From Minisyncoccota bacterium (GTDB taxonomy: Bacteria; Patescibacteriota; Minisyncoccia; Phycocordibacterales; UBA9973): a stretch of 64,000 nt of DNA. Positions 10,102 through 29,811 of this stretch are shown piece after piece. Location: positions 2,041 to 66,040 of the forward strand of contig JBDSNU010000017.1 in the NCBI GenBank assembly GCA_039915165.1. The letters run 5' to 3'. The notes beneath the pieces were generated by a model. That model was not told where the DNA came from. It did not search any database and saw only the letters and a list, made by a program, of their open reading frames with translations. The position numbers and the translations under genes were made by a program. Positions within the stretch are counted from its first letter, which is position 1. Each line of letters starts with the position of its first letter.

Positions 10102-10617
10102 ATGAAAATAATTTTGCTTTCCGTATTATTTTGGATAATTGCAATCGCAGTATTTGCTCAAGAAAAATGGGTACCAGTTGATGCCAATAAGAAATATCTG
10201 GCAGTAACTATTATGCCTGATGGAACATTCCAAAAAATTATTCTTGATGCAGATGAAAATGCTAAACAAGAATTTGTCCATGTAGCTTTAGCAAATACTA
10301 ACAACACTGCCCCGATTACTTTACAGCAAAGAATGTATTACATTGGTCAAACAGTTAATACAGACGACCTCTCCTCAATTTCCGAAAGTGATGCATATCG
10401 CTTTCTGGCCAATCAATTGTGTGAAAGTTGTAGTGTACAACGAGTAGTGAGTAAAAATGTAGTGACGTTTATGTGTACTCACGATTCATCCGGTAGATTG
10501 ATGCTTATACAAACGTATTGGGATCAACCAACTGCTAAATGGATTGTGAATGTCTCATACACTAACGTTGCTCATCAAACATTCAAAATCATTAAACCTT
10601 CAAGGTTTGTTTATTAA
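10102..10617 (+). CDS. Secreted hypothetical protein
   Basis: N-terminal signal peptide MKIILLSVLFWIIAIAVFA-QE. No recognisable domain. Confidence 0.45.
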   Translation: MKIILLSVLFWIIAIAVFAQEKWVPVDANKKYLAVTIMPDGTFQKIILDADENAKQEFVHVALANTNNTAPITLQQRMYYIGQTVNTDDLSSISESDAYRFLANQLCESCSVQRVVSKNVVTFMCTHDSSGRLMLIQTYWDQPTAKWIVNVSYTNVAHQTFKIIKPSRFVY

Positions 10618-10627
10618 AGCAAACTGT

Positions 10628-10672
10628 CCACATAGGCCATTACAATAATAATTGTAATGGCCTATTTTTTAT
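10628..10672. terminator. Hairpin terminator (bidirectional)
   Basis: ATAGGCCATTACAA-TAATAA-TTGTAATGGCCTAT followed by TTTTTTATT. Confidence 0.6.
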
Positions 10673-11988
10673 TGGGCGATAGAAAGATTACCATTCGCTT
10701 TGAGAGTTTCTGCTGGTTGAATAGTCATTGAACCTGATTGTATTCGAGCAAAAGCCGCCAGACCGATCATTACTGCATTGTCAGTGGCTAGCCATGGCTC
10801 CGGGAAGAGTACGACAACACCAGGCAGTTTCTTTGCTACGCGAGCAGTGAGTTGTTCTTTGAGGTAAGTGTTACCAGAAACACCACCACCAACAACAACA
10901 GTTTGAATACCAAATTCTTCAATTGCGCGCATCGTTTTTTTAGTTAATACATCGATTGCTGCATCTTCAAATGCACATGCCAGCGCTTGTTTTTCAGCTT
11001 CTGTGAGATCACGAACAGGAGCTGTCCCGAGCGTAGTCGAGGGATCTTGCACCAGATCTCGTATCGTATACAACACGGCAGTCTTCAATCCAGAAAATGA
11101 AAAATCATAATCACCTGAGTGCATCATCGGACGCGGAAATTCAAATTTATTTTCTATACCTAATAGCCGGAACTCCCTTGCCAGTTTAGAGACTGCTGGG
11201 CCTCCTGGATAGGGTAGTCCGATCATTCGCGCCACCTTATCAAAAGCTTCACCAACAGCATCATCGCGTGTCTGACCAATCTTTTCATATTCACCATAAC
11301 TTTTTGTTAATACTAGTTCAGTGTGTCCACCAGAAACGAGTAATGCCAAGAGTGGGAATTCTAATTCTTTGAATAAGTACGACTTAGTAGGAGGCAAAAC
11401 AAGAAGACCATATTGCTGGTCCTTGGTCCTCGCTAATCGCTCACCAGACGCATCAATATGGTCTTCTTGTTTTGCCTCCAGAGAAGCCTGGAATTCAATT
11501 ACCGCTGCTGTCACTACATGTCCTTCCATATGATTCACAGGAATCACTGGAATATCCCAGATCTTCGACAATACTTTTGCCGCATTGATGCCAACCCATA
11601 AAGCCGGTTCAAGTCCAGGGCCAACAGTTACTGCGATGTAATCAATGTCAGGTTTTTCATATGTATTAAAAAGGTCAACAAAACCACTAACCATTTCATC
11701 TTCCCGGTTGCAGATCGATGCAACCGTGTCCGTCAAAGCCATGTCTGATGTGGCGACGGAGGATTTGTTAATTAATACTCCAGCTTGCAGCAAAGCATCT
11801 TTTAGAAGAGGAACAATCTTTTCTGCATGCGCGCGTTTTGCCATAGCAGGGAAGACACCGCCGTATTGTGCATGAAGATCGATTTGAGATGCGAGGGCAT
11901 TGCCCAGTAATGTAATACGTTGCCCATCTTGGCTCAAAATTGAGATCCCTGTCTCGTCACAGCTAGTTTCAATAGCCAAAATTTTCAT
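10669..11988 (-). CDS. tsaD: tRNA N6-adenosine threonylcarbamoyltransferase TsaD (Kae1/Gcp family) with an internal insertion
   Basis: MKILAIETSCDETGISIL N-terminus, HMEGH metal site, LVSGGHT. Listed ORF start 12072 moved to the ATG at 11988 (MKILAIET). About 40 aa extra between HMEGH and SGGH relative to E. coli TsaD. Confidence 0.8.
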   Translation of the reverse strand: MKILAIETSCDETGISILSQDGQRITLLGNALASQIDLHAQYGGVFPAMAKRAHAEKIVPLLKDALLQAGVLINKSSVATSDMALTDTVASICNREDEMVSGFVDLFNTYEKPDIDYIAVTVGPGLEPALWVGINAAKVLSKIWDIPVIPVNHMEGHVVTAAVIEFQASLEAKQEDHIDASGERLARTKDQQYGLLVLPPTKSYLFKELEFPLLALLVSGGHTELVLTKSYGEYEKIGQTRDDAVGEAFDKVARMIGLPYPGGPAVSKLAREFRLLGIENKFEFPRPMMHSGDYDFSFSGLKTAVLYTIRDLVQDPSTTLGTAPVRDLTEAEKQALACAFEDAAIDVLTKKTMRAIEEFGIQTVVVGGGVSGNTYLKEQLTARVAKKLPGVVVLFPEPWLATDNAVMIGLAAFARIQSGSMTIQPAETLKANGNLSIAQ

Positions 11989-12062
11989 CGAATTACTATA
12001 GCATTTGATTGATTCTTTTGGAAGGTGTGGTATGATATGGCGAAATAATAAACCAATTAAAT

Positions 12063-12221
12063 ATGAGCTCAATTACTGAAAAAGATGCAGAATTAATTCG
12101 GGATGCGGTGAGATCAACTCAAAAAGTCGTTAGCTTATCTGATCACAGAAAAAAACTAGCGAAAAAACGCCAAGCTGAACAACAAAATGAACAGCTAAAC
12201 AGGCGCAGAGCGTGTTCTTAA
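12063..12221 (+). CDS. Small basic hypothetical protein (52 aa), below the ORF-track cutoff
   Basis: ATG at 12063, open to TAA at 12219-12221, followed by hairpin terminator CCCTTC-ACAT-GAAGGG plus T7 at 12254-12280. Confidence 0.3.
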   Translation: MSSITEKDAELIRDAVRSTQKVVSLSDHRKKLAKKRQAEQQNEQLNRRRACS

Positions 12222-12326: not shown

Positions 12327-12965
12327 ATGGAACACTCAGATAAAAAATACTTACATGAATTTCATTATCCGATATTAGAAATTTGTGGTCCTTCTGGTGT
12401 TGGTAAGTCCACATTAGTAAGAATTATGAATGAAATTTTTCCTTCGTATGAACTTTCGATTTCGTGTACTACGCGTGAACAAGACCCCCATCAAGAGGTG
12501 CATGGCAAACATTACTACTTTACTACACGAGAAGAATTTCTTCGCATGAAGTCAAATGGTGAGTTTGCTGAAACAAATCCTTTTATGAAAGGTAATTTAT
12601 ACGGCACACCGTGGTCAGAATTTTTGCGAATATTTCAAGCAGGAAAAGTACCCGCGCTCGATATTGATATAAATGGTGTTTGTCAGTTGGATAATGTTAT
12701 CCCGCGATCAAAAACATTTCGTTTGTATTTAGACGTAACACAAGAAGAGCAGCGAGCTCGATTATTGCGGAGAGGGCGAAGTACTGACACCTCAGAAGTG
12801 ATTGAAAAAAGAGTTATGTATGCCTTACAAGAAAAGGAGCAACTCCTCAAGATTGTTGAGTCTGATCCGCAAATGTTTTACATAAAAGATTACAACACCT
12901 GTGATCCAATTATGTTTGCAAATACACTTATTAATCATTTGGTTCACGGGCACCCACTAGATTAA
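12327..12965 (+). CDS. gmk: Guanylate kinase
   Basis: GPSGVGKSTL P-loop, SISCTTR, YYF, YGTP motifs in Gmk order. Confidence 0.75.
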   Translation: MEHSDKKYLHEFHYPILEICGPSGVGKSTLVRIMNEIFPSYELSISCTTREQDPHQEVHGKHYYFTTREEFLRMKSNGEFAETNPFMKGNLYGTPWSEFLRIFQAGKVPALDIDINGVCQLDNVIPRSKTFRLYLDVTQEEQRARLLRRGRSTDTSEVIEKRVMYALQEKEQLLKIVESDPQMFYIKDYNTCDPIMFANTLINHLVHGHPLD

Positions 12966-14525: not shown

Positions 14526-14553
14526 TTGACATTTTTAATAAATAGTGTAGAGT
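14526..14553 (+). promoter_or_regulatory. Sigma70-type promoter (TTGACA-16-TAGAGT)
   Basis: The listed TTG start of ORF 14526 is actually the -35 hexamer. Same TTTTATTGAC-W-TTTTTAATA terminator-promoter module as at 14006. Confidence 0.4.
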
Positions 14554-14576: not shown

Positions 14577-14984
14577 ATGAAAGCAAAAAACAAAACCATT
14601 ATTATCATTGAGGTATCAGATTTGGTAACAACACTTGAGCATTCAAAAATTATTGCCGCAGGTGGAATACTCGATACAGTTACTATTAATGAGAAAAACC
14701 AAATTGAAATTGTGTTTTTAGCAGGTGGCTCTATAGAAGGTATTGAGAAAATAGTTACTGTTGTAAGCGCAGAAACAGAAGCATTTCTTAGTACGCCATT
14801 AGGTGAATTAGATTTGAGTGTATATCTTATCAATCTACTTAAAGCAAAAGATATAGTAATTATTGGCGATATTAAAAAGCATACCTGGGACGAACTTTTA
14901 AAAACCAGGGGATTTGGCGAAAAAGCCGCAAAATCACTAAAGCAGCTACTGGAAGAACACCATGTTTGTTTGACTCAAAAGTAA
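14577..14984 (+). CDS. Hypothetical protein with C-terminal RNAP alpha-CTD-like helix-hairpin-helix domain
   Basis: C-terminus LDLSVYLINLLKAKDIVIIGDIKKHTWDELLKTRGFGEKAAKSLKQLL aligns to E. coli RpoA CTD ([48 protein letters not shown]). Start moved to the ATG at 14577. Confidence 0.5.
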   Translation: MKAKNKTIIIIEVSDLVTTLEHSKIIAAGGILDTVTINEKNQIEIVFLAGGSIEGIEKIVTVVSAETEAFLSTPLGELDLSVYLINLLKAKDIVIIGDIKKHTWDELLKTRGFGEKAAKSLKQLLEEHHVCLTQK

Positions 14985-15033
14985 TTCTTGGTAAAACACA
15001 TGCAAAGCAATCTTAGAAATAAGATTGCTTTTT

Positions 15034-15177
15034 TATTTTGTGTGTACGCCCTGTCGCTCTTCGAGCTATGAGGTGGGCCCACCGCGAAGCATGAGGTCTT
15101 CGAATGCGAAGTGGTGACCCCACTGCGTGGCTTTCAGAACTTTTAAAGCAAAGTGATTATATAAAAAGTAGTATTAA
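15034..15177 (+). repeat. Cassette-boundary repeat, copy A
   Basis: TTTATTTTGTGTGTACGCC...GTGGTGACCCCACTGCGTGGCTTTCAGAACT...GTGATTATATAAAAAGTAGTATTA. Contains an internal duplication of a CATGAGGT...GCGAAG unit. Sits between convergent terminators. Confidence 0.7.
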
Positions 15178-15252
15178 TTCTCTGAGGATATTGATGAAAT
15201 AAAAAAGAGCATCACGTTAATTCGTAATGCTCTTTACTGTTTTTGAAATCCC

Positions 15253-15717
15253 TTATACAAGCTCTGTGCCGTTCTGTATCGCGAAGCGGAAGCCTCGTGA
15301 TTTAACGTAGCCTTCGAGTATGTCTACCATAGATTGACTGATACCGCGGAACTTTGTCAGCTCGGTTGCAGGCACGGAAAGCATGTCAGAAAGATACACC
15401 CAACCGCTTGCCCTTACTGCCAGACCAATGCGCGTAACACTGTTCTTGTTACCAACGGTATGGTCATGGAAGTCAATCATGAAGTCGCGCAGAGGTATCC
15501 CTTTGGCGTTCTCCATCATTTCCTGACGTTCGGAAATCTCCCTCTTCGTTAGCTTCCTCGCAAATGCAAGGTTTACGAAGATTTTATCAGGCAGGTTCGT
15601 GTTGATGGTAAAGTTCCTGTCTCCCGTGATTTTCATTGCTCCCTTTGCAAGGAGCTTAACAAGGTCTTCTTTGCCAATCTCCAGAGTGGCAGAGATGTCG
15701 TTTTTAGTTACTTTCAT
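15253..15717 (-). CDS. Hypothetical protein with C-terminal RNAP alpha-CTD-like domain
   Basis: C-terminus LAVRASGWVYLSDMLSVPATELTKFRGISQSMVDILEGYVKSRGF resembles the alpha-CTD HhH (weaker than its two neighbours). Own hairpin terminator at about 15200-15235. Confidence 0.45.
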   Translation of the reverse strand: MKVTKNDISATLEIGKEDLVKLLAKGAMKITGDRNFTINTNLPDKIFVNLAFARKLTKREISERQEMMENAKGIPLRDFMIDFHDHTVGNKNSVTRIGLAVRASGWVYLSDMLSVPATELTKFRGISQSMVDILEGYVKSRGFRFAIQNGTELV

Positions 15718-15775
15718 CAGTATAGGTTTTTAATGTTTTACATTTTTTATTTGTCCTAACCCTAGCACAAAACAC

Positions 15776-15804
15776 TTGACATGTCAACGTATTGTGGTAA
15801 TGTG
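15776..15804 (+). promoter_or_regulatory. Promoter with palindromic -35 (TTGACATGTCAA)-16-TAATGT
   Basis: Perfect 12-bp palindrome overlapping -35. Near-identical 28-nt copy at 17188-17215. The listed ORF start 15781 is the ATG inside the palindrome. Confidence 0.45.
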
Positions 15805-15906
15805 AAGGAAACACTAAAACCCAATAACGATGATAGACATACCAAATCCGCCCAAACTCGTAAGCGAGGGCCATCTCTCTCCAGAAGGAGCGGAAACACT
15901 CTTAAA

Positions 15907-16479
15907 ATGGAAGAGGCCTTTGACAAGCTCGGCTACGCCGCTGATATAGAGGAGAGCAACTCTGGCGCTGTGCTTCTAAAAAACGGTGACCTGTTATGGT
16001 TCGATTCCAATGCCGCGCCAATTGACGCTGGCGACTACGCACCGTACATCCACGGTCGTCTGACAAGTGACATGAAAGGTAGTATCTGCATTTACGATCC
16101 CGAGCACGGTTCGGAAAGGTCGTTTAAGAAATGGATAACCATGATCGAGGAAGCCGGCTCTCCTGTTAAGGAAGAAGAAACGTATGGCACGTGGGAGGAG
16201 ATATACAATATCGCCGCCAAGTACGCAGACTTCAGGAACAGCATGATTCCGCCTATCGACAACATTGAGGCCAAGGAAAAGTTCCTCGATACCAGCCTCT
16301 ACGATCTGGAGGTAAGCACACGGGTGTTTACCAGCCTTGCTGCGCAGAATATCTTGACCCCGCGCGACCTTTTAGGCTACACGGCTTCAGAACTTTTGAA
16401 ATTTAATAATTTTGGCAAGAAGACCCTTCCTGAGATTGTAGAGATTCTGAAAAGGTATGATCTTCAGCTAAAGGATTGA
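15907..16479 (+). CDS. Hypothetical protein with C-terminal RNAP alpha-CTD-like domain
   Basis: C-terminus DLEVSTRVFTSLAAQNILTPRDLLGYTASELLKFNNFGKKTLPEIVEILKRYDLQL is a strong match to alpha-CTD (ELLK..N.GKK.L.EI). Start moved from 15781 (in promoter) to ATG 15907 after GGAG. GC-rich (about 50%). Confidence 0.55.
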   Translation: MEEAFDKLGYAADIEESNSGAVLLKNGDLLWFDSNAAPIDAGDYAPYIHGRLTSDMKGSICIYDPEHGSERSFKKWITMIEEAGSPVKEEETYGTWEEIYNIAAKYADFRNSMIPPIDNIEAKEKFLDTSLYDLEVSTRVFTSLAAQNILTPRDLLGYTASELLKFNNFGKKTLPEIVEILKRYDLQLKD

Positions 16480-16523
16480 TTTATTCAAACCGCTTAAGCC
16501 CTCTCAGAAATGAGGGAGCTTTT

Positions 16524-16634
16524 TTTATTTGTGCGTGCACCGCATAGCTCGAGGTCTTCGAGAGCGACGTGGTGACCCCACTGCGTGGCTTTCAGAACTT
16601 TGTAGGAATGGTGATTATATAAAAAGTAGTATTA
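16524..16634 (+). repeat. Cassette-boundary repeat, copy B
   Basis: TTTATTTGTGCGTGCACC...CGAGGTCTTCGAGAGCGACGTGGTGACCCCACTGCGTGGCTTTCAGAACT...GTGATTATATAAAAAGTAGTATTA. Confidence 0.7.
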
Positions 16635-16707
16635 CTGTATTGGAAGTGTTAGTAAAATAAAAAAGCTTCACATCTTAATGTGAAGCTTGAAGAATTTGAT
16701 TCATAAC

Positions 16708-17127
16708 TCAGTGCGTCGGGATGACTGTTTCTTTTGTGGTGCTAATTTCCCACCTGAGCTTAAGCGCCCAGCCCTGAGCGTATGAGTCATAAAGACCCTG
16801 CATCTGCTCAAGGGACTTACATTCCATGCGCTTGTCGCCAAGGCCCTGGTCGTATATCCCGATAACCTTATCGTCTTTGCCTAGTACAGGCATAGACGTG
16901 GGTCGGCCATACAGCTCAAGCGGCCTTGAGCCCATCGCTGTGACATTGATGCCTGCGGAGCCCTTGAACCTAATAGATGCTTCATCTGCTATATTTGAAG
17001 CAATAATGGCTTCGTACCAAAAATCAGGATAGCCATCAAATGCATCTTTAACTGTGCGAATGTTTGCTTCCCATTCCTCGGCGGAAGCGCTACCTCTCAT
17101 TAGATCAATAACTTCTTGTCTTGTCAT
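16708..17127 (-). CDS. Hypothetical protein (139 aa)
   Basis: ORF with hairpin terminator (AAGCTTCACAT-CTTAA-TGTGAAGCTT) downstream. No domain recognised. Confidence 0.45.
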   Translation of the reverse strand: MTRQEVIDLMRGSASAEEWEANIRTVKDAFDGYPDFWYEAIIASNIADEASIRFKGSAGINVTAMGSRPLELYGRPTSMPVLGKDDKVIGIYDQGLGDKRMECKSLEQMQGLYDSYAQGWALKLRWEISTTKETVIPTH

Positions 17128-17187
17128 TGCAAATTTATTTAGAGTGAATTAAAAGTACTTTACTGGTTTTATAATAACAGAATGTCC

Positions 17188-17215
17188 TTGACATGTCAAT
17201 GTATTGTGGTAATGT
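17188..17215 (+). promoter_or_regulatory. Second copy of palindromic-operator promoter TTGACATGTCAA-16-TAATGT
   Basis: CCTTGACATGTCAATGTATTGTGGTAATGT, differing by one base from the 15776 copy. Confidence 0.45.
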
Positions 17216-17234
17216 AAAATAAAGTTTTAATTCC

Positions 17235-17910: not shown

Positions 17911-17991
17911 TTTTATTTGCATAAGTTCTGAATACGCAATGTAGTATGTAAAAATATCTTTACATACTAGCGTTTAAAATTTGTGACCCCA
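17911..17991 (+). repeat. Cassette-boundary repeat, copy C (left-arm type 2, truncated after GTGACCCCA)
   Basis: TTTTATTTGCATAAGTTCTGAATACGCAATGTAGTATGTAAAAATATCTTTACATACTAGCGTTTAAAATTTGTGACCCCA, then unrelated sequence. Left arm shared with copy E. Confidence 0.6.
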
Positions 17992-18120
17992 AGACTTGGA
18001 TTTCCGAACTGGTCCAAGACTACTCATTGATCAAGGCGAGCATTTTTGAAATGAAAGAGTTGGATTTCTCTATCAAATAAAAAAGGCGGACATAAAGGTC
18101 CGCCTCTCAATTTACAAATT

Positions 18121-18684: not shown

Positions 18685-19251
18685 TTAAAGAATGTTGTTT
18701 TCAATACCATACACTTTCCTAAGTGCAGTCCGAGCGTCCTCGCCCAGGCGGTCTGCCACGATAAACCAAAACGGTATGCGGCTTTCCCATTGCTCTTCTC
18801 GCGATACGCGCTGGTCAACCTCTAGGGTGTCCAGCAGCATCATCCATTGCAGCTCAACGAACTGCTTGGGCGTGACAGGAAGATTTGTCAGAAGCTCCCT
18901 GTCTAATAAAAAATAGGGTGTGTTTTCCAACACGCTTCGGTCAAAGGACTGCTGCGACATGCGGCAATAGGCATATACTAAGGCTTCTGCCTCAGCGCCA
19001 ATCTTTTCCCGTACTTCGCCACGACGCTCAAGTGAAATTGAGAAGCCGTTGAAGTTTTCAGTGCCGTAAATTGAATGGAAGAGCCCAGCCACTATCGTTG
19101 AGAATGGGCGGTTATACCTTTCCAGATATTTTGCCAAGCCTTTCAGGTGAGGGAGAAACTTTCCGTTAGTGTGCTCGACGTCTGTGACGCCAAGCGTAAG
19201 CAGGTAGTCCGATAACGGACCGTTCAGAAGCGTTTTTTCTTGTGTTGTCAT
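18685..19251 (-). CDS. Hypothetical protein
   Basis: Start moved from the listed TTG at 19278 to the ATG at 19251 (MTTQEKT...). No confident domain. Confidence 0.4.
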   Translation of the reverse strand: MTTQEKTLLNGPLSDYLLTLGVTDVEHTNGKFLPHLKGLAKYLERYNRPFSTIVAGLFHSIYGTENFNGFSISLERRGEVREKIGAEAEALVYAYCRMSQQSFDRSVLENTPYFLLDRELLTNLPVTPKQFVELQWMMLLDTLEVDQRVSREEQWESRIPFWFIVADRLGEDARTALRKVYGIENNIL

Positions 19252-19297
19252 GAGGTTACATTTTTTAACATAATGCAATATATGTTAAAAAATGTCA

Positions 19298-19367
19298 ATG
19301 TTTTGTGACCCCACTGCGTGGCTTTCAGAACTCGTTAAGAACGGTGATTGCATAAAAAGCAGTATTA
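19298..19367 (+). repeat. Cassette-boundary repeat, copy D (right arm only, fused to a promoter fragment)
   Basis: ATGTCAATGTTTTGTGACCCCACTGCGTGGCTTTCAGAACTCGTTAAGAACGGTGATTGCATAAAAAGCAGTATTA. The preceding ATGTCAATGT is a half-copy of the operator-promoter. Confidence 0.6.
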
Positions 19368-19473
19368 TAGAGTTGAGAAACATCAAGGTGGTGTGAAGCT
19401 ATTGAACCTATACGCGTTACTTGACATTTTTCATATAGATGATATTGTAATTTCAAACTTAAAACAAATAAAT

Positions 19474-20037
19474 ATGAATTGGTACTCAATCTTTTACTGG
19501 TTGACCGTAGCGGACAGCGTAAAAAAATTCTTCGATACTACAAGCAATATCTTTACTTGGTTTGCAGTTCTATCATTCCTTGTAGTAGTTGCTACGACAA
19601 TCGGCAAGTCTTATCAGATTTCCGAAAATAGCATTAAAACTCCAGAGGAAGAAGCAACGGACGCTGACGTGAGAAGTTGGGATTTCCTTAAAAGGATATC
19701 TAGCAAATTCTTCTGGTGGATGTTGCCCCTTGCCCTTGTTACATGGCTTGGTTATGTAATGACTCCTACTAAAAAGGACTGTCTGCTGATTGTTGCCGGT
19801 GGTGCTGTTGGAAACTTTATGACCACTGACACTTCCGCAAGGAAACTGCCGTCTGATGTAACCAAGTTTCTGCACTTGAGCTTAAAAAATGAAATTGCGG
19901 GACTCAGCGACACGGCGAAGAAAGAACTCGGCATAACAACTCCGAAAGATGAGTTCTTAAAGAAGGCCGCTAAAATGTCCAAAGAGCAATTGCTGAAATA
20001 CTTACAAGCAGACACAACAGTTTTAAAGGATAACTAA
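19474..20037 (+). CDS. Membrane protein, hypothetical
   Basis: Two TM helices. Start moved to the ATG at 19474 because the listed upstream start lies inside repeat D. Confidence 0.45.
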   Translation: MNWYSIFYWLTVADSVKKFFDTTSNIFTWFAVLSFLVVVATTIGKSYQISENSIKTPEEEATDADVRSWDFLKRISSKFFWWMLPLALVTWLGYVMTPTKKDCLLIVAGGAVGNFMTTDTSARKLPSDVTKFLHLSLKNEIAGLSDTAKKELGITTPKDEFLKKAAKMSKEQLLKYLQADTTVLKDN

Positions 20038-20085: not shown

Positions 20086-20218
20086 TTATTTGCAAAAATT
20101 CTGAAGACGCATTTGGGTATATAAAAATATCTTTACAGGATAGCGTTTAAAATCTGTGACCCCACTGCGTGGCTTTCAGAACTTATGAGGAGCAGTGATT
20201 ATATAAAAAGTAGTATTA
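20086..20218 (+). repeat. Cassette-boundary repeat, copy E (full length, carries both arms)
   Basis: TTTTTTATTTGCAAAAATTCTGAAGACGCA...TAAAAATATCTTTACAGGATAGCGTTTAAAATCTGTGACCCCACTGCGTGGCTTTCAGAACT...GTGATTATATAAAAAGTAGTATTA. Confidence 0.7.
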
Positions 20219-20246
20219 TTGAACTAGTACAGCTTGTGAAATAATT

Positions 20247-20292: not shown

Positions 20293-20308
20293 GTGAACGT
20301 TTGTTCAC
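20293..20308 (+). promoter_or_regulatory. SOS (LexA/DinR-type) box GTGAAC-N4-GTTCAC
   Basis: Perfect inverted repeat GTGAACgtttGTTCAC matching the GAAC-N4-GTTC Cheo-box consensus, placed between promoter and umuD. Confidence 0.5.
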
Positions 20309-20750
20309 TAAACTAACCTCTGTGAAAGTATCTATTTTAACGACCTTACCTCATTCCCACCATAAAGTTATCCCTATTGTATTAGCCAAGGTACAAGCGG
20401 GTTTTCCTTCACCTGCCGATGATTATATTGAATCTGCATTGAATATTAACGACCTTTTTCAAGTGGATGAATCAAGTACCTTCTTTGTTCGTGTTGAAGG
20501 AAGTTCAATGATAAATGCAGGAATCATGAATGGAGACATATTGTGTGTCCGTAGAGATTTAGAGCCAAAAGAAGGCAAGATTGTCATTGCTATTATCGAT
20601 AGCGAATTCACCGTTAAAAGATTTATGAAAAAAGGCAAGAGAGTAATATTCGAAGCAGCTAATGATGACTACCCATCAATTGAGCCCCAGGACGGTCAGA
20701 GCGTCGAGATATGGGGTGTTGTAACAGGGTTTGCCCGAACGTTTAAATAA
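20301..20750 (+). CDS. umuD: UmuD-like S24 peptidase (translesion synthesis accessory subunit); start uncertain
   Basis: QAGFPSPADDYIE, catalytic GSSM serine and FTVKRF lysine in UmuD/LexA-C-terminal spacing. No N-terminal HTH. The listed TTG start lies inside the SOS box. Confidence 0.7.
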   Translation: MFTKLTSVKVSILTTLPHSHHKVIPIVLAKVQAGFPSPADDYIESALNINDLFQVDESSTFFVRVEGSSMINAGIMNGDILCVRRDLEPKEGKIVIAIIDSEFTVKRFMKKGKRVIFEAANDDYPSIEPQDGQSVEIWGVVTGFARTFK

Positions 20751-20751
20751 T

Positions 20752-22098
20752 ATGTACAAGAAGCTCTACGCCCTCATAGACTGCTCCTCATTCTATTGCT
20801 CTTGTGAAAGGGCTTTTCGTGCTGACTTAAAAGGAAAGGCAATTTGCGTCCTTTCAAACAACGATGGCTGTATTATTTCTTTAACACCCGATACTAAAGC
20901 ACTAGGGTTTAAAATGGGCACACCGTACTATCAAATTAAAGATGATCTCGCCCAAAAAGGGGTTGCGGTCTTTTCATCTAACTATTGTCTCTACGCTGAT
21001 ATGAGCAAGCGTATTGTGAAGATAATACGATCGTTTAGTGATTTTGTTGAGCAATACTCAATTGATGAATCGTTTGTACAGTTTGAAGCAAATACAAATA
21101 ATATAGAACAAGAAAGAATACGGTTACATGCTCTGGCTGAAGAGATACATTTTACTATCCTAAAGAAAACGGGAGTGCCAGTAAGAGTTTCAATTGCTGA
21201 AACAAAAACATTGGCTAAGGTTGGTAGTGAGTATACAAAGTGCCTTATTAAGCAAGGTATTGTCCCAGCAGTGTGCTTTTGGGAACACCCAGACAAAGAT
21301 GGCTATATGAAAACACTTCCCGTAAATGATGTATGGGGCATAGGACGACAATGGAGTAAAAAGTTAGAAATGTCAGGAATTAAAACAGCAAAAGATTTAT
21401 CAATGGCTAATCCTGACTTACTGAAAAAGAATTACTCTATTGTTATGGAGCGCACAGCAAGAGAGCTTTCTGGATTCTCTTGCATATTGTTTGAACTAGT
21501 TGCTCCTGAACGTAAAAGCCTGGTACGAAGTCGCATGTTTTCTCATAAGATAACTGATGCCAAATACCTTAAACAGGCTATTTCGTTCCACCTAGCTCGA
21601 GCCAGTGAGAAACTACGGAGTGATAAACTTATGGCTACTGAACTATCAATATTTATGTCCACTGGTAGACACACCGAAATAACTAAATATAGTTATGCAC
21701 ATCAGACATTACTTCGTCCAACGAATGACATAATAATTCTGGCAGAAGTCGCAGACAAACTATTTAAAGAATGTTATGTGAAAAATGACAAATTTGGTAA
21801 TGAATATAAGTATTCAAAAGCAGGAGTATCACTTAGTGGATTTTCAAGTATTGATAAACAGAGTGAACCACTTTTTGATATTGGTATTACAGAAAGACCC
21901 GCGTTAATGAAAATACTTGATGGGCTTAATAGAAAGTTTGGAAAGCATACCGTAGTTCTCGCTTCTATGGGGGTCCCAAAAAAACTACAGAAAATAGAAG
22001 CAGCTAAAGACGATGCTATTGAATGGGGTATGAAGAGAGGGTTAATGAGTAAGCGGTTTACAACAGTTTGGGAAGAAATTTTACAAGTTAAAATATAA
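20752..22098 (+). CDS. umuC: UmuC-like Y-family DNA polymerase
   Basis: MYKKLYALIDCSSFYCSCERAFRADLKGKAICVLSNNDGCIISLTPDTKALGFKMGTP matches the UmuC N-terminus. The ATG at 20752 is 2 nt after the umuD stop. Confidence 0.8.
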   Translation: MYKKLYALIDCSSFYCSCERAFRADLKGKAICVLSNNDGCIISLTPDTKALGFKMGTPYYQIKDDLAQKGVAVFSSNYCLYADMSKRIVKIIRSFSDFVEQYSIDESFVQFEANTNNIEQERIRLHALAEEIHFTILKKTGVPVRVSIAETKTLAKVGSEYTKCLIKQGIVPAVCFWEHPDKDGYMKTLPVNDVWGIGRQWSKKLEMSGIKTAKDLSMANPDLLKKNYSIVMERTARELSGFSCILFELVAPERKSLVRSRMFSHKITDAKYLKQAISFHLARASEKLRSDKLMATELSIFMSTGRHTEITKYSYAHQTLLRPTNDIIILAEVADKLFKECYVKNDKFGNEYKYSKAGVSLSGFSSIDKQSEPLFDIGITERPALMKILDGLNRKFGKHTVVLASMGVPKKLQKIEAAKDDAIEWGMKRGLMSKRFTTVWEEILQVKI

Positions 22099-23137: not shown

Positions 23138-23438
23138 GGATATTGAAGGGATAATGTTTATATTTGGTGATTGATGACCCCTATAATGGGATCAGTGGAC
23201 GCAAAAATCCCACCACAAGGGTGAGAGCTTTCGCCCTCCAATACTCGTTTCCAAGTACGGCCTCTTAAGCACTCCCGTATGGCGGGGTTTTTACTTAAGA
23301 GGACTTTTGCCATGCCGTTGATTGCTCAAGGGGTTAGGCCATATCTATTGATTTGTACCCCAAAACTATACATTGTAGAGATTGTATTTACAATGGCACA
23401 TAGGTATATAATGTTCACAACGTTCACAACACTCACGC

Positions 23439-24977
23439 GTGCAATATGATATGAAGCCTGTATACCATGACTATGACAATAAGACCTATGTAGAATACCT
23501 TGATGAGGCTATATCTATCTTGATAATGACGGGTGACCAGGAGACTATGGAGAAGCTGGCTTCAAAATTATCAGGCGTTCATTCTGAGATTTTTTGGAAA
23601 ATTATCGGGTACAAAACGCTTCAAAGGATAGCAAAAGCTGGACATGCCAAGGTTTATTCAGAAAACCAGTATGATTTTGAACGACTTCATGAGTTTCGTG
23701 AACTTAAGACGGAAACTGATAGCTTATATGAAGAATATCTGGCATTGATCGAACCCGCAATCTTCCTCGAGGCAATTGCCAATATTGCATATCAATTAGC
23801 TAGATTGGTGCTAAAAAAACAAGTTGTGATTCATATAGACTTTTTAAAAGCCTGGTTGGAATGGCACATGTATCTCACTAACAAAAATAAAAACAAACGG
23901 AAAGGTGAGAAAATAAAGGAAAAACTCAGGGCTATACTTGGCGACAAGATAGATGATTTTGAGAAAATCCAACAAGAATACAGCGATAATATGCAAAGGG
24001 TAAAAGAAGGCAGGGCTAATCTTTTTGTTAATATCGACAAAGAGGTTATGACTGATGACTGTCCTTCACATGAAAACCTTTTCCTACCCCGTAGGCTTGA
24101 TGCCTCTGATATTTTAGTTGTGGAGGAACATACCAAATGCGTTGAAATTGAAGGACAAATTTATTCCCTTCGAGACTATTATGAAATAATTGAAAATAAG
24201 ATTGACCAGTCATGGCTTCAAAGCACGGACTTGCTCAAGCGGATTATCATTGTCTACCTTATCAAGAAATGTCAGAATGGGGACGAAAAAGCGTTCAATA
24301 AACTCTTTAGTTTTTACGTTACCAAAGCTGAGCATTTAGCAGTATCGTTTATCCGTCATAAAGCTCAAGGCAGAAATAAACTAGCTTTTAGTGAGGGAGG
24401 AAATCTGTCTGAAAGTGCTGCAAAAAGTGCAATCTGGACAATAATGGAAAAGCTGCTCAGAGGTGACAACCCGACTAATATCTACAAATATTTAGATAAG
24501 AATAGGAACGGGAAAAAGGGGGTTGATTTTTTAAACAAAAGACCCTACGCAGCCTTAGAAGAGTCCTACGGACTGCTTTTTCAATTGGTTAATAATCAGT
24601 ACAACATGCTAGTCCAGTACCAGTCAGACCTTATCCAAAGCACTAAAGATCCGCTGCACAGGCATAAGACAGCAAAGAAATCATCGACCAGAAAGCAGTA
24701 CATGCAAAGTCTGTTTCGTATTAGCCAGCACTATCTTCGTCATGCCGAGTATTCGTCCACAATATTCACTATGTTCGATCCGCTTGCCCTGCTCAGTATC
24801 TCTACCCTGCATAATAAAAACCTTTTCAACCCGACTAATAAGGGAAACCTGACGATATGGCTGTTCGGGGTGAAGGGTGTTTTCCCTGGGAAACTTATGG
24901 AGGGCCTTAATGATTGGTTTAAGGCAAATACCAAAACAAAGAATGGTAAAAGAATTGTCCCCGAAGATGATTACTGA
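23439..24977 (+). CDS. Hypothetical protein; weak sigma-70 region-2-like segment
   Basis: 512 aa. LLKRIIIVYLIKKCQNGDEKAFNKLFSFYVTKAEHLAVSFI resembles sigma-70 region 2 (GD..AF..L...Y). Otherwise unassigned. Confidence 0.4.
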   Translation: MQYDMKPVYHDYDNKTYVEYLDEAISILIMTGDQETMEKLASKLSGVHSEIFWKIIGYKTLQRIAKAGHAKVYSENQYDFERLHEFRELKTETDSLYEEYLALIEPAIFLEAIANIAYQLARLVLKKQVVIHIDFLKAWLEWHMYLTNKNKNKRKGEKIKEKLRAILGDKIDDFEKIQQEYSDNMQRVKEGRANLFVNIDKEVMTDDCPSHENLFLPRRLDASDILVVEEHTKCVEIEGQIYSLRDYYEIIENKIDQSWLQSTDLLKRIIIVYLIKKCQNGDEKAFNKLFSFYVTKAEHLAVSFIRHKAQGRNKLAFSEGGNLSESAAKSAIWTIMEKLLRGDNPTNIYKYLDKNRNGKKGVDFLNKRPYAALEESYGLLFQLVNNQYNMLVQYQSDLIQSTKDPLHRHKTAKKSSTRKQYMQSLFRISQHYLRHAEYSSTIFTMFDPLALLSISTLHNKNLFNPTNKGNLTIWLFGVKGVFPGKLMEGLNDWFKANTKTKNGKRIVPEDDY

Positions 24978-25160
24978 GCCGCTTTATTTTCAGAAGAAGA
25001 CTTTGATGACAACATTCACAGGGACAAACTAGTATAAAAGTGCGAAAAAACGATCTGAAATAAACCCTTATTTTAAGCCATTTTGTGGCTCTTTTTTTTA
25101 TTTTCCATATATAGAGCATACCTGAACGTTTTTCAGGCTTTAGTAACAAATAATAATAAA

Positions 25161-25427
25161 ATGAGAACCACCACACACTTACCCAATGACGAATACGAAG
25201 AGCTTTTCGACATTAACCTCGTTGCTGCTTGCGTACTCGACGACATACCAATCGAAGCCTATAACAGAGATCCTAAAAATGCACCGCGTGTAGGTTTTTT
25301 ACTTAGAAAAAGCAATAAATTGAAAAACCTTATAAACCTCTACCTTTCAGGATTGCTGACTGTGGAGCCAAAACAGTTTGCTGCAGAAATTAGAAACCTG
25401 AAAGCCCGAACTAAAATTCCTTATTAA
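25161..25427 (+). CDS. Small hypothetical protein (88 aa)
   Basis: ATG at 25161 (MRTTTHLPNDEYEELFDIN...). The listed start at 25083 extends upstream without support. Confidence 0.35.
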   Translation: MRTTTHLPNDEYEELFDINLVAACVLDDIPIEAYNRDPKNAPRVGFLLRKSNKLKNLINLYLSGLLTVEPKQFAAEIRNLKARTKIPY

Positions 25428-27889: not shown

Positions 27890-29707
27890 ATGCTCTTGAA
27901 GGGCTTGGGGAGGTATTGCGGGGCATACGGAAAAGAATGTTGTCCGAAGGATATGAAATCCATAATGGAGCCGTTTCTAAAAAGCATGAGCAAGCAAATT
28001 ATTAAAACTGAAAAAGAACTCATAGCAGAGATAGTGAACGGCAAATACCGCGAGTGCTATTTTATATACAACCGCAAGAGCACTGACGATGATGACAATC
28101 AGAAAAATTCCATTTCATATCAGAAAGCAGAGAATGCTCGATTTGCATTTAAAGAAAAGCTACCGATGGCACACCTTACAATAAAGGGTTTTTGTACCGA
28201 CGGGATTGTCTCGGAAAAGCATTCAGGATTTAAGGAGGATAATGATTTTAATATCACAGCTGATGGTCTAGTTCAGTATCGTATTGATAGACCAAAGTTT
28301 CAGCAAATGCTCCAGTTCGCAAGCCAGGGGCTTATAAGAGGTGTCGTTTGTCTTTGCTGGGACCGTATTAGTAGAAACAAAGGAGATGATACCCTTGTAA
28401 GAAAGCTTATGCGCAAAGGTGTAGATTTTCGATTCGTGTATGCAAACTATGATAAGACCAGTTCTGGTGCATTGCATATGGATATTGATGGAATGTTTTC
28501 CCAGCATCACTCTAGAGTTACTAGCGAAAAAGTTTCCATCACTACAAGGCACTCCAGAGAAAAAGGTATCTGTACCTACCGTGCACCCATCGGCTATTTG
28601 AACGAGGGTAACATGGATCACAAGCCCTTTGACCCTGAGCGTGCTCCCGTAATTACCCAGATGTATGAATTTTACGCTACTGGTGAGTGGAGCTTGTCTG
28701 ACCTGGCACGATACGCTGCAGAGCAAGGCTTCGTTACTGTTCCTATGAGACGAAGGAGAACGCAGGAGGAAATACTCGGTGAAGAGGATGAATTCGACGA
28801 GATTCAAAAGACATCTAGGCCAGTAAATGAGAATCATATCAGCCGAATACTCACCAATCCTTTTTATACAGGAAAGATTTTAGACTCAGGAGGCAAGCAC
28901 ATTGAAAGCAACAGCCACGAACCCCTTGTCAGCGAAGAGCTTTTTAATAAGGTGCAGGGTGTGCTCAAAAAGAAAAAGACTAGCGTGCATTACACAGAGA
29001 AATTAGATCTCCCGCTTCGGGGCGTTGTACGTTGTGAACTTTGTGAACGTGTATATACACCATACGAGAGAAAAGGAATTCTGTATTTCAACTCCCGCTG
29101 TATTAAGGGCTGTACTAACGAGCTCAAAAACTTTAACATTTCCTTCATTACTGAAAAGATCGCTGGGCTTATTGGCAACCTATACTTTACCGATGATGAA
29201 ATGGCTCAAATGGACGCTCGTATGGGTACAGACGTAGCGTTGCTTGAAGAAAAGCGCCTAAAGCAGCTAGACCAGGTCGAGAGAAGAAAAAAGAAAGTGC
29301 GTGAAGACCTTGCATATATTCGCTCGAACAAGCTCTCACTGCTTAAGACAGGCGTCTATACTGCCGAAGCGTTAGTTGAAGAAGAGTCAAATTTAAACGA
29401 GGAGCTCTTGATTCTTCAGAATCAAGAACAGTCTTCTGACATCGCTATGCACGAAACAATGAAGGACGTACAGAAACTTTCAGAACTAGTGAAGGACGTT
29501 ATGCCATATTACAATTTTGCCAATGCACATGAAAAAGAGAAAATAATCAGAGTTATCTTTTCAGAACTGACTATTTCACAGAATACGTTTAAATATAAAT
29601 GCAAAAGTGGCTTTCAGTGCTTTGAAAATCGCTTAAATGCAATGGGTGACCCCACGGGGAATCGAACCCCGATTAACGGCTTGAAAAGCCGGCGTCCTAA
29701 CCGTTAG
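27890..29707 (+). CDS. Large serine recombinase (resolvase/invertase-type catalytic domain plus recombinase and zinc-ribbon domains); start uncertain
   Basis: FIYNRKSTDDDDNQ...SISYQ catalytic-serine motif, DRISRN, recombinase domain, Zn ribbon VRCELCERVYTPYERKGILYFNSRCIKGC, coiled coil. The ORF reads through the antisense tRNA-Glu gene. Confidence 0.7.
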   Translation: MLLKGLGRYCGAYGKECCPKDMKSIMEPFLKSMSKQIIKTEKELIAEIVNGKYRECYFIYNRKSTDDDDNQKNSISYQKAENARFAFKEKLPMAHLTIKGFCTDGIVSEKHSGFKEDNDFNITADGLVQYRIDRPKFQQMLQFASQGLIRGVVCLCWDRISRNKGDDTLVRKLMRKGVDFRFVYANYDKTSSGALHMDIDGMFSQHHSRVTSEKVSITTRHSREKGICTYRAPIGYLNEGNMDHKPFDPERAPVITQMYEFYATGEWSLSDLARYAAEQGFVTVPMRRRRTQEEILGEEDEFDEIQKTSRPVNENHISRILTNPFYTGKILDSGGKHIESNSHEPLVSEELFNKVQGVLKKKKTSVHYTEKLDLPLRGVVRCELCERVYTPYERKGILYFNSRCIKGCTNELKNFNISFITEKIAGLIGNLYFTDDEMAQMDARMGTDVALLEEKRLKQLDQVERRKKKVREDLAYIRSNKLSLLKTGVYTAEALVEEESNLNEELLILQNQEQSSDIAMHETMKDVQKLSELVKDVMPYYNFANAHEKEKIIRVIFSELTISQNTFKYKCKSGFQCFENRLNAMGDPTGNRTPINGLKSRRPNR

Positions 29708-29718
29708 ACGATGGGGCC
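29647..29718 (-). tRNA. tRNA-Glu (anticodon TTC)
   Basis: Reverse complement folds as GGCCCCA-TC-GTCT-AACGGTTA-GGAC-G-CCGGC-TTTTCAA-GCCGT-TAAT-CGGGG-TTCGATT-CCCCG-TGGGGTC-A. Followed by CCCA, not an exact CCA. Confidence 0.75.
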
Positions 29719-29811
29719 ATAGTAAATGGCGTGAGTAACGTGACCATTATAAATAAAATTTGGAAAAAGTAAACCGTGCTTGTTTTTGCAAGCACGGCAG
29801 TGGGAGGGAAT

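What the first reader, a model, noticed from the sequence alone, without database searches (positions are those of the whole stretch)
14577..16479. Three consecutive cassette genes encode proteins ending in an RNA polymerase alpha-subunit CTD-like domain
CDS 14577-14984, 15253-15717 (minus strand) and 15907-16479 have unrelated N-terminal regions of about 80-130 aa, but each ends with a 50-60-aa helix-hairpin-helix segment. The third aligns especially well with the E. coli RpoA CTD (DLEVSTRVFTSLAAQNILTPRDLLGYTASELLKFNNFGKKTLPEIVEILKRYDLQL against [56 protein letters not shown]). The alpha-CTD contacts UP-element DNA and activators. Free alpha-CTD-like modules fused to variable heads, clustered in a mobile cassette array, could be RNAP decoys or recruiters, that is, transcription-hijacking factors of the element. 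They could also be a diversified family of DNA-binding effectors.
Basis: partly seen in the sequence, partly recalled or inferred. Interest (0 to 1): 0.7.

Follow-up and report, generated by a model that had tools for sequence, protein, structure and literature searches.

The report
Free-standing RNA polymerase alpha-CTD proteins
Three neighbouring small genes in a variable, recombinase-associated island of an uncultured Paceibacterota bacterium each end in a copy of the RNA polymerase alpha-subunit C-terminal domain without the part that builds the enzyme, so they are accessory proteins of an annotated but functionally unstudied kind, not polymerase subunits.

Summary

None has the alpha N-terminal assembly domain. 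The organism's own complete rpoA lies about 90 nt past the window end. Its CTD is only 28-31% identical to P1 and P3, so these are not rpoA duplicates.

The setting is not an integron. It is a modular, hypervariable island between gmk and tRNA-Glu. Each gene has its own promoter-like and terminator-like sites. A roughly 90-nt element is repeated five times, and a phage-type serine integrase sits at the tRNA end.

Homologues are very rare and lie in similar islands, one near a terminase. The P3 head occurs elsewhere with a different CTD (82% against 32% identity) or with none.

Function is inferred only: free alpha-CTD modules acting in trans at promoters or on alpha-CTD partners. GenBank already labels P1 and P3 this way, and phages carry similar small proteins. 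Interest is moderate.

The parts
14526..14553 (+). Promoter-like site upstream of P1 (TTGACA, 16 nt, TAGAGT).
   Evidence: Consensus scan, 10 of 12 matches. This is a consensus match only.
14577..14984 (+). P1: 135-aa protein with a 66-aa head and an alpha-CTD (GenBank MEO5646163.1).
   Evidence: Pfam RNA_pol_A_CTD E 5.8e-12, residues 67-127. All significant PDB matches are RpoA. A full-length homologue (29% identity, E 7e-15) lies next to a P2-family gene in L012.
14775..14957 (+). alpha-CTD domain of P1 (residues 67-127). The R265 equivalent is Y; N268, G296 and K298 are kept.
   Evidence: alignment with E. coli and host RpoA CTDs.
15004..15031 (+). Terminator-like hairpin after P1.
15114..15201 (+). 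Copy 1 of the repeated island element (small-ORF frame ...GDPTAWLSELLKQSDYIKSSINSLRILMK*). It lies between the P1 and P2 terminators.
15204..15235 (-). Terminator-like hairpin after P2.
15253..15717 (-). P2: 154-aa protein with a small beta-alpha-beta head, two linker helices and a divergent alpha-CTD-like domain (GenBank MEO5646164.1, annotated 'hypothetical protein').
15280..15459 (-). alpha-CTD-like region of P2 (about residues 87-146). The hairpin reads GIS instead of the family's GIG; the K298 equivalent is S.
15776..15811 (.). Shared divergent promoter region of P2 and P3, with a palindromic -35 (TTGACATGTCAA, 15776-15787). The + strand has TTGACA then TAATGT. The same block is repeated at 17187-17223.
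   Evidence: Repeat family D4. The TTGACA and TAAT(G/A)T boxes are conserved upstream of P3 homologues in L001, L004 and L007. At the 17188 copy the scan finds an 11 of 12 promoter on the - strand. Function is inferred.
15830..15912 (+). Ancestral 5' end of P3 (MIDIPNPPKLVSEGHLSPEGAETLLKWK), now out of frame because of a 1-nt deletion near 15912.
   Evidence: DNA alignment with L001, L004 and L007. Translation. The same sequence appears in an independent Logan assembly.
15907..16479 (+). P3 as annotated: 190 aa, an acidic 120-aa head plus an alpha-CTD (GenBank MEO5646165.1).
   Evidence: Pfam RNA_pol_A_CTD E 2.3e-14. PDB matches are RpoA only. Homologues P0002 (head plus a different CTD) and P0003 (head only).
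16267..16452 (+). alpha-CTD domain of P3 (residues 121-182). It keeps the equivalents of D259, E261, R265, G296, K297 and K298.
16501..16518 (+). Terminator-like hairpin after P3.
16572..16659 (+). Copy 2 of the repeated island element.
27890..29707 (+). Large serine recombinase (phage-type integrase) at the tRNA-Glu end of the island. It gives context for mobility.
   Evidence: Pfam Resolvase and Recombinase. phrog_95 integrase E 1.1e-54. It is 82% identical to the recombinase 6.8 kb from the P2 homologue in L005.
29643..29719 (-). tRNA-Glu, the island boundary. The same tRNA flanks the P1-like and P2-like pair in L012.

Best explanation
P1, P2 and P3 are accessory proteins of the flexible gene pool of a Candidatus Paceibacterota (CPR) bacterium. 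Each consists of a lineage-specific N-terminal head and a free copy of the RNA polymerase alpha-subunit C-terminal domain. None has the alpha N-terminal domain, so none can assemble into the enzyme (shown).

Each is its own transcription unit in a modular, hypervariable island that ends in a phage-type serine integrase at tRNA-Glu. Their few relatives lie in comparable islands, one beside a terminase. They therefore most likely travel as cargo of integrative elements or prophage remnants (inferred from context).

Proposed mechanism (inferred, untested): the free alpha-CTD acts in trans on whatever the polymerase's own tethered alpha-CTD normally touches. P3 keeps the equivalents of the DNA-contact residues R265, G296 and K298 and of the sigma-contact residues D259 and E261. 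It would sit on A/T-rich UP-like DNA beside promoters and either block or bridge RNA polymerase. P1 lacks R265, so it would more likely bind a protein partner of alpha-CTD. P2 has lost the hairpin glycine and the K298 lysine that most of its family keeps, so its mode is least clear. The head would give specificity or oligomerisation. The CTD appears to be exchangeable, because the same P3 head occurs with a different CTD and with none.
For: Domain identity:
- Pfam matches for P1 and P3.
- PDB sequence matches that are RpoA at every E-value below 0.5.
- The P2 family profile, model and fold matches.

Not subunits:
- NCBIfam rpoA models score 35-45 bits against cut-offs of 228 bits or more, and align only to their C-terminal ends.
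- An intact host rpoA lies in the S13-S11-S4-rpoA-L17 cluster.

Not recent duplicates:
- Identity to the host CTD is 28% and 31%, against 39% and 43% to the E. coli CTD.

Residue pattern:
- The alignment.

Independent transcription units:
-.

Island variability and modularity:
- The same gene modules sit in different islands: L001 and L012 in the TsaD-gmk island, and L005, L007 and L023 in the PBP island.
- DNA homology blocks begin at the promoter and end at the repeat.

Mobility markers:
- A serine integrase at tRNA-Glu.
- The same integrase type near the P2 homologue in L005.
- A terminase and a DNA methyltransferase near P0011 in L023.
- Y-family polymerase or S24 peptidase genes near P2-family genes in the window, L021 and L014.

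CTD exchange:
- P3 against P0002 is 82% identical in the head and 32% in the tail. P0003 is head only.
- DNA homology between the window and L007 stops at about 16241, the head/CTD junction.

Precedent:
- Small phage proteins annotated 'RNA polymerase, alpha subunit, C-terminal' are the best viral fold matches of P2, though the scores are weak.
Against: - No experiment or computation here shows binding to DNA, RNA polymerase, sigma or any activator.
- None of the three keeps the full E. coli DNA-binding set R265, N268, C269, G296, K298, S299.
- The host's own alpha-CTD is atypical: it has a GIGDKG hairpin and no D259 or E261 equivalents. Rules taken from E. coli may therefore not transfer.
- P3 is frameshifted at its 5' end and may be decaying.
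- No homologue was found in IMG/VR viral contigs or in the phage and plasmid collections. The element-borne status rests on neighbourhood alone.
- P1 and P3 are acidic overall (pI 5.8 and 4.6), which is unusual for DNA-coating proteins.
Confidence: 0.4

Rival explanations
1. The alpha-CTD fold serves here only as a generic helix-hairpin-helix nucleic-acid-binding module, unconnected to RNA polymerase. The proteins would be small DNA-binding regulators, nucleoid-associated proteins, or accessories of defence or anti-defence functions in the island.
For: An alpha-CTD-like helical domain is described as the nucleic-acid-binding part of the BREX/Pgl kinase PglW (PMC12839542). P1 and P3 give weak matches to that stretch of the PglW models (PADLOC E 0.014 and 1.5e-4; NCBIfam E 0.008). 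The P2 family consensus hairpin, GIG, is the classical HhH motif, and P2 is basic (pI 9.6). The P2 homologue in L005 lies among AAA_15/AAA_21 ATPase, PP2C and Macro genes.
Against: PADLOC gives no significant defence-system assignment for any island protein. P1 and P3 are acidic. P1 lacks the minor-groove arginine. No conserved partner gene accompanies the family across loci.
Confidence: 0.3
2. They are decaying remnants of prophage or integrative-element genes and have no present function in this genome.
For: P3 has a 5' frameshift. P2 itself has lost the hairpin glycine and lysine that most of its family keeps. P1 and P3 have almost no homologues among 5.8 billion proteins. The island is full of orphan genes.
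Against: The P2 family keeps full length and architecture across 16 diverged representatives down to about 20% identity. P1 aligns over its whole length, with a single one-residue gap, to a 29%-identical homologue. The P3 head is 82% identical to P0002 over 142 residues. All three ORFs are intact downstream of their start codons and have promoter-like and terminator-like sites.
Confidence: 0.12
3. They are integron-type gene cassettes, or truncated duplicates of the organism's rpoA.
For: The genes are short and consecutive, and a repeated element separates them.
Against: No tyrosine integrase is present. The repeat is not an attC-like imperfect palindrome and shows a coding signature. Each gene has its own promoter-like and terminator-like sites. 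The host rpoA is intact and its CTD is only 28-31% identical.
Confidence: 0.02

Closest known systems
C-terminal domain of the bacterial RNA polymerase alpha subunit (RpoA alpha-CTD, Pfam PF03118; for example E. coli 1LB2/3K4G and B. subtilis 1Z3E chain B)
   Same: The fold and sequence family are the same. P1 and P3 pass the Pfam cut-off. The P2 model superposes on 1z3e_B at 2.1 A over 66 of 67 residues. P3 keeps the equivalents of R265, G296, K298, D259 and E261.
   Different: There is no alpha N-terminal dimerisation and assembly domain and no flexible linker to one. The genes lie outside the ribosomal-protein/rpoA cluster. An unrelated head domain takes the place of the N-terminal domain. 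The DNA-contact set is incomplete, and in P1 R265 is Y.
Stand-alone 'RNA polymerase alpha subunit C-terminal domain-containing' proteins annotated in genomes and phages (for example UniProt A0A6J5MNY7, A0A6J5NZM6 and A0A6J5QDR9 from uncultured Caudovirales, 111-135 aa, and A0A2P1JY10 from Rhodococcus phage Finch)
   Same: These are small proteins of similar size built around a free alpha-CTD. GenBank already gives P1 and P3 this name. They are the best viral fold matches of P2.
   Different: No detectable sequence relationship was found outside the domain. The fold matches are weak (E 0.24-0.7). I found no paper that tests the function of any of them. The Paceibacterota heads are lineage-specific.
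alpha-CTD-like helical domain of the BREX type 2 / Pgl kinase PglW
   Same: It is an alpha-CTD-type module used outside RpoA, described as the nucleic-acid-binding component (PMC12839542). P1 and P3 give weak HMM matches to that region.
   Different: PglW is a protein of about 1400 aa with kinase, wHTH and STAND-like domains. No BREX or Pgl genes are present here.
Integron gene cassettes
   Same: Short genes of unrelated function lie in a row, separated by a recurring sequence, in a variable region.
   Different: There is no IntI and no attC. The genes are in both orientations and have their own promoter-like and terminator-like sites. The associated recombinase is a large serine integrase.
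H-NS/MvaT/Lsr2-type xenogeneic silencers (an analogy of working principle only, from general knowledge)
   Same: They have similar size and two-part layout: an N-terminal head and a C-terminal module. In RpoA that module reads the A/T-rich minor groove.
   Different: There is no homology and no coiled-coil head. P1 and P3 are acidic. Nothing was tested.

Membership tests
Pfam PF03118 RNA_pol_A_CTD (domain family) | Match to the family HMM above the gathering score (23.8 bits). | tested here: met
   P1 scores 45.6 bits and P3 53.3 bits. P2 alone is not met: it has no hit at E up to 1, and one of 17 family members reaches E 0.0021.
Pfam PF03118 RNA_pol_A_CTD (domain family) | Compact helical HhH fold that superposes on solved alpha-CTD structures. 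| tested here: met
Pfam PF03118 RNA_pol_A_CTD (domain family) | Profile-level homology of the divergent member (P2) to alpha-CTD. | tested here: met
   hhalign of A3 against A4 gives probability 95.7%, E 9.6e-9. The P2 CTD against the P1 CTD gives 94.9%. The family profile against PDB has RpoA 9n9p_A as top hit at E 0.0013.
UP-element-binding alpha-CTD (functional class, E. coli paradigm) | The DNA-contact '265 determinant': R265, N268, C269, G296, K298, S299. | tested here: not met
   From the alignment, P3 has R, T, S, G, K, T and P1 has Y, N, L, G, K, A. P2 has G296 as S and K298 as S. No protein has the full set. The host RpoA has R, N, A, G, K, G.
RNA polymerase alpha subunit (RpoA, TIGR02027) | N-terminal dimerisation and assembly domain (Pfam RNA_pol_L and RNA_pol_A_bac). 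| tested here: not met
   No such Pfam hits. TIGR02027 scores are 35.5 and 45.5 bits against a cut-off of 227.8, and cover only the C-terminal end of the model.
RNA polymerase alpha subunit (RpoA, TIGR02027) | Position in the rpsM-rpsK-rpsD-rpoA-rplQ cluster. | tested here: not met
   The genuine rpoA (334 aa, all three domains) follows S13, S11 and S4 about 90 nt beyond the window end, in L018. L018 is 100% identical to the window over 11 kb.
Integron gene cassette array | An adjacent IntI tyrosine recombinase, attC recombination sites and promoterless cassettes. | tested here: not met
   The only recombinase is a large serine integrase. The repeated element shows a coding signature, not attC symmetry. 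Each gene has its own promoter-like and terminator-like sites.
Other HhH families (NusA AR1/AR2, Tex, ComEA, RuvA domain II) | Best profile or structure match to that family rather than to alpha-CTD. | tested here: not met
   PDB sequence searches return RpoA for every significant match. Pfam HHH_5 is only sub-threshold (E 0.049 and 0.21).
Cargo of a phage or integrative element | Location between attachment sites of an element, or presence on viral or plasmid sequences. | tested here: inconclusive
   An integrase lies at tRNA-Glu 12 kb away, and relatives lie near an integrase (L005) or a terminase (L023). Element ends were not defined. There were no hits in IMG/VR, and only true rpoA genes were found in the phage and plasmid collections.
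Trans-acting alpha-CTD mimic (decoy or adaptor) | Binding to UP-like DNA, sigma region 4, NusA or alpha-CTD-dependent activators, and an effect on transcription. | not testable with these tools
   This needs biochemistry or complex modelling. Only residue conservation is available.

The most novel reading that the evidence does not exclude
A family of trans-acting alpha-CTD mimics with exchangeable CTD modules. Mobile-element or prophage cargo in CPR bacteria would release free alpha-CTD domains on variable heads. These would titrate or redirect the host polymerase's promoter-proximal contacts (UP-like DNA, sigma region 4, activators, NusA). This would be a way of hijacking or insulating transcription that has not been shown experimentally for any stand-alone alpha-CTD protein. 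The finding that the P3 head carries a different CTD in one relative and none in another would then reflect arms-race or target switching.
Probability: 0.2. Interest if true: 0.7.

Novelty: new member of a known kind. Interest (0 to 1): 0.42.

Why it matters
The alpha-CTD is the main docking point through which promoters and activators recruit bacterial RNA polymerase. A protein that supplies this domain free of the enzyme could compete with it or substitute for it. Genome annotation already recognises stand-alone alpha-CTD proteins, and GenBank names P1 and P3 accordingly. In the literature I could search, none has a tested function.

This locus offers three diverged examples side by side in a minimal-genome CPR bacterium. 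It also gives evidence that the domain is swapped between otherwise near-identical proteins, and it reveals a previously unannotated divergent family (P2, 'hypothetical protein').

If the mimic idea is right, it would add a new class of transcription modulators from the mobile gene pool. If it is wrong, these are simply small HhH DNA-binding proteins, and the locus is of local interest only.

Tried and rejected
**P2 checks that failed before the family alignment was available**
- Direct Pfam and PDB sequence searches of P2 found nothing.
- AlphaFold2 with a 2-sequence alignment gave mean pLDDT 46 and was unusable. The model became usable only with the 17-sequence alignment.

**Ideas tested and dropped**
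- A fourth family member at 10102-10617, suggested by synteny with L016, was rejected. It is a signal-peptide protein with no profile match.
- The truncated rpoA duplicate idea was rejected.
- The integron idea was rejected.
- A common origin of the P1 and P2 heads was suggestive but not significant. The P3 head is unrelated to both.

**Database and literature searches with no useful result**
- Searches of the heads against PDB, PHROGs, PADLOC and NCBIfam gave no assignment.
- GTDB representative genomes gave no P2-family relative. For the P3 query they gave only three Gemmatimonadaceae matches to the CTD portion, which I took to be rpoA without inspecting them.
- IMG/VR gave no relatives of P1, P2 or P3.
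- The phage and plasmid collections returned only genuine rpoA genes on mis-binned chromosomal records.
- Literature searches for characterised stand-alone alpha-CTD proteins found none.
- The afdb50 fold library was unavailable.
- A search for a second tRNA-Glu fragment marking the far end of an integrated element found only two 11-mers, both inside the repeated element.
Full report
**Source and gene calls.** The three proteins are identical to GenBank entries MEO5646163-65 from a Candidatus Paceibacterota (CPR) MAG contig of 119 kb. GenBank names P1 and P3 'DNA-directed RNA polymerase subunit alpha C-terminal domain-containing protein' and P2 'hypothetical protein'. The ORFs are at 14577-14984 (+, P1, 135 aa), 15253-15717 (-, P2, 154 aa) and 15907-16479 (+, P3, 190 aa).

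**Checking the observation.** P1 and P3 match Pfam RNA_pol_A_CTD at E 5.8e-12 and 2.3e-14, with 45.6 and 53.3 bits against a cut-off of 23.8. phmmer against all PDB chains returns RpoA at every E-value below 0.5. Family profiles give the same result. No NusA AR, Tex or other HhH family appears.

P2 gave nothing by direct search and only a weak BLASTP match to the P3 CTD (E 0.003). A full HMMER scan of 1.84 billion representative proteins found 16 relatives, nearly all about 155 aa and aligned end to end.
- Their alignment (A3) compared with an alignment of alpha-CTDs gives hhalign probability 95.7%, E 9.6e-9.
- The profile's best PDB hit is an RpoA CTD (E 0.0013).
- AlphaFold2 failed with two sequences (pLDDT 46). 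With 17 sequences it gave a confident model (mean pLDDT 88.9).
- Foldseek hits against PDB are almost all RpoA, and isolated alpha-CTD chains reach target-normalised TM-score 0.65-0.77.

All three C-termini are therefore alpha-CTD-like, with P2 a divergent member. No other ORF in the window matches, so the clustering is real.

**Not polymerase subunits and not rpoA duplicates.** None of the three has the alpha N-terminal domains. The rpoA equivalog models score 35-45 bits against cut-offs of 228 bits or more. The last gene of the window is rpsK. A Logan contig that is 100% identical to the window over 11,027 nt (L018) continues with rpsD, then a 334-aa RpoA with RNA_pol_L, RNA_pol_A_bac and RNA_pol_A_CTD, then rplQ. 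The organism therefore has a normal alpha subunit about 90 nt beyond the window.

Its CTD (…GLSTRTLNALSAANIRTIGGIARKRVDDLLEIDGIGDKGITEIKEALAQFNLSLKD) is 28% identical to the P1 CTD and 31% to the P3 CTD. That is lower than their identity to the E. coli CTD (39% and 43%). The CTDs of P1 and P3 are 31% identical to each other. These are old or horizontally acquired copies.

**Functional residues (alignment, E. coli numbering from general knowledge).**
- P3 keeps D259, E261, R265, G296, K297 and K298. N268 is T, C269 is S and S299 is T.
- P1 keeps N268, G296 and K298 but has Y at R265, the key minor-groove residue. Its L012 homologue has G there.
- P2 aligns an arginine at the R265 position, but its hairpin reads GIS-Q-S. 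Most of its family has G-[IV]-G-x-K.
- The host RpoA has R265, N268, G296 and K298 but lacks the D259 and E261 equivalents.
- Computed pI values are 5.8 for P1, 9.6 for P2 and 4.6 for P3.

**Heads.** The P1 head (about 66 aa), the P2 head (beta-hairpin, helix, strand, then two helices, about 86 aa) and the P3 head (120 aa, acidic) match nothing in Pfam, PDB, PHROGs, PADLOC or NCBIfam.
- P1 and P2 align over their full lengths at the profile level (probability 72%, E 3.5e-5). With the CTD removed, the head signal is weak (ungapped 42 columns, P 0.006).
- The P3 head is unrelated to either.

**P3 is frameshifted.** Three homologous loci (L001, L004, L007) align from a conserved promoter through an ATG that corresponds to window 15830. 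The window lacks one base near 15912 (AATGGAA-GAGG). The upstream frame reads MIDIPNPPKLVSEGHLSPEGAETLLKWK, matching the N-termini of P0002 and P0003. An independent Logan assembly carries the same sequence. The annotated 190-aa product starts at an internal ATG.

**The CTD is an exchangeable module.** P3 and P0002 are 82% identical over the 142-residue head but 32% identical over the tail. DNA homology between the window and L007 ends at about 16241, the head/CTD junction. P0003 is the same head with no CTD, ending a few residues after the junction.

**Genomic setting.** The region between gmk (12327-12965) and tRNA-Glu (29643-29719) is a variable island.
- Related genomes have the same flanks (tRNA synthetase, TsaD, gmk, tRNA-Glu, tRNA-Val) with different small orphan genes between them (L001, L012).
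- In L012 a 136-aa P1 homologue (29% identity over the whole length, E 7e-15) sits directly beside a P2-family gene next to tRNA-Glu.
- Other relatives lie in a second variable island downstream of a PBP gene. P0008 in L005 is 6.8 kb from a large serine recombinase and lies among AAA_15/AAA_21, PP2C and Macro genes. P0007 in L007 lies among orphans. P0011 in L023 is about 5 kb from a terminase large subunit and a DNA methyltransferase.
- The window's island ends with a large serine recombinase (27890-29707; Resolvase plus Recombinase; phrog_95 integrase E 1.1e-54). It abuts tRNA-Glu and is 82% identical to the L005 enzyme.
- GC content rises to 0.43-0.47 across 15-19 kb and to 0.50-0.52 at 26-28 kb, against about 0.35-0.40 nearby.
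- UmuD and UmuC lie at 20301-22098. Y-family polymerase or S24 peptidase genes also neighbour P2-family genes in L021 and L014.
- No relative was found in IMG/VR. GTDB representatives yielded no P2-family relative, and for P3 only matches to its CTD portion. In the phage and plasmid collections the CTD query hit only true rpoA genes.

**Architecture of the array.** Each gene has its own promoter-like and terminator-like sites.
- P2 and P3 diverge from a block containing a palindromic -35, TTGACATGTCAA (15776-15787). The same block recurs at 17187-17223 between the next divergent pair.
- Between convergent genes lies an element of about 90-135 nt, present five times in the window and also in L005 and L007.
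- This is a modular arrangement, but it is not an integron. There is no IntI, no attC symmetry, and the genes are not promoterless.

**Mechanism.** Shown: domain identity, absence of the assembly domain, an intact host rpoA, independent transcription signals, island variability, integrase association and CTD exchange. Inferred: that the proteins act through what alpha-CTD normally binds.

I commit to a trans-acting alpha-CTD model with confidence 0.4. P3 would be a UP-like DNA and sigma-proximal binder, and P1 a protein-partner binder. The main rival is generic HhH DNA binding unrelated to RNA polymerase, as proposed for the alpha-CTD-like domain of PglW (PMC12839542; weak HMM matches), at 0.3. 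Gene decay is at 0.12.

**Known or new.** Stand-alone alpha-CTD proteins are an annotated class. GenBank already names P1 and P3 that way. The BFVD library holds phage proteins of 111-135 aa called 'RNA polymerase, alpha subunit, C-terminal', and these are the best, though weak, viral fold matches of P2. I found no paper that tests the function of any such protein.

Four things are new here:
- recognition of the P2 family as alpha-CTD-like;
- the three-gene cluster;
- the evidence for CTD swapping;
- the comparison with the host's own rpoA.

I file it as a new member of a known kind, of moderate interest.

Noticed in passing
window 15114-15201, 16572-16659, 17983-18069, 19305-19385, 20156-20243; also L005 10521-10608 and L007 7760-7839, 11859-11939, 13471-13558: A repeated element of about 90-135 nt lies in intergenic DNA after + strand genes. 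One frame encodes ...CDP[TK]xW[LI]SEL....[DN]xIKxSI..[LM]..L..K*. That frame shows an excess of synonymous differences (135 synonymous to 361 nonsynonymous, against 62:430 and 60:461 in the other two frames). This suggests a small ORF of 30-45 aa, although several copies lack a canonical start codon.
   Followed up: partly
window 29607-29617 and 29645-29655, against the repeat copies (for example 15113-15137): The repeat's conserved box shares two exact 11-mers with the junction between the serine integrase 3' end and tRNA-Glu. GGTGACCCCAC is the reverse complement of the tRNA-Glu 3' end, and GTGGCTTTCAG lies 38 nt upstream of it. In the repeat the two occur in the opposite order. This may be a relic of attachment sites; it remains unexplained.
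   Followed up: partly
window 15776-15787 and 17188-17199: A palindromic -35 hexamer pair, TTGACATGTCAA, sits inside a 37-nt block repeated at 89% identity. At each site it lies between a divergent gene pair: P2/P3, and 16708-17127(-)/17235-17870(+). It suggests back-to-back promoters or a shared operator.
   Followed up: partly
window 15830-15949: P3 has a 1-nt deletion near 15912 relative to homologues in L001, L004 and L007. The conserved first 28 codons, starting at ATG 15830, are therefore out of frame. The same sequence is present in an independent assembly.
   Followed up: yes
window 23223-23340 (-): A match to the Rfam LOOT RNA family (RF03000, 72.4 bits against a gathering score of 46.4). 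It lies between an orphan gene and a 512-aa ORF with no family match.
   Followed up: no
window 27890-29719: A large serine recombinase (phage-type integrase, 605-aa ORF) has a 3' end that overlaps tRNA-Glu on the opposite strand. The preceding 2 kb has unusually high GC (0.50-0.52). The ORFs from 23439 to 27734 match no Pfam, PHROG or NCBIfam family above threshold.
   Followed up: partly
window 20301-22098: A UmuD-like S24 peptidase and a UmuC-like Y-family polymerase form an overlapping pair inside the island. Similar genes neighbour P2-family genes in L021 and L014.
   Followed up: partly
L018 11117-12121 (same genome, about 90 nt beyond the window's 3' end): The organism's own RpoA has an atypical CTD. 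Its hairpin reads GIGDKG instead of N(L/F)GKKS, and it lacks the D259 and E261 equivalents. P3's CTD is closer than the host's own to the E. coli CTD (43% against 38% identity).
   Followed up: partly
window 10669-12072 (-): The TsaD ORF is 467 aa. It is longer than the TsaD genes called in related loci (405-453 aa in L012 and L016).
   Followed up: no
window 18685-19278 (-) and 19348-20037 (+): A DUF6817 protein (Pfam E 7e-24, phrog_20220 E 2.4e-17) and a neighbouring ORF matching phrog_3878 (E 1.5e-5). These are the only island proteins, apart from UmuD and the integrase, that match phage protein families.
   Followed up: no
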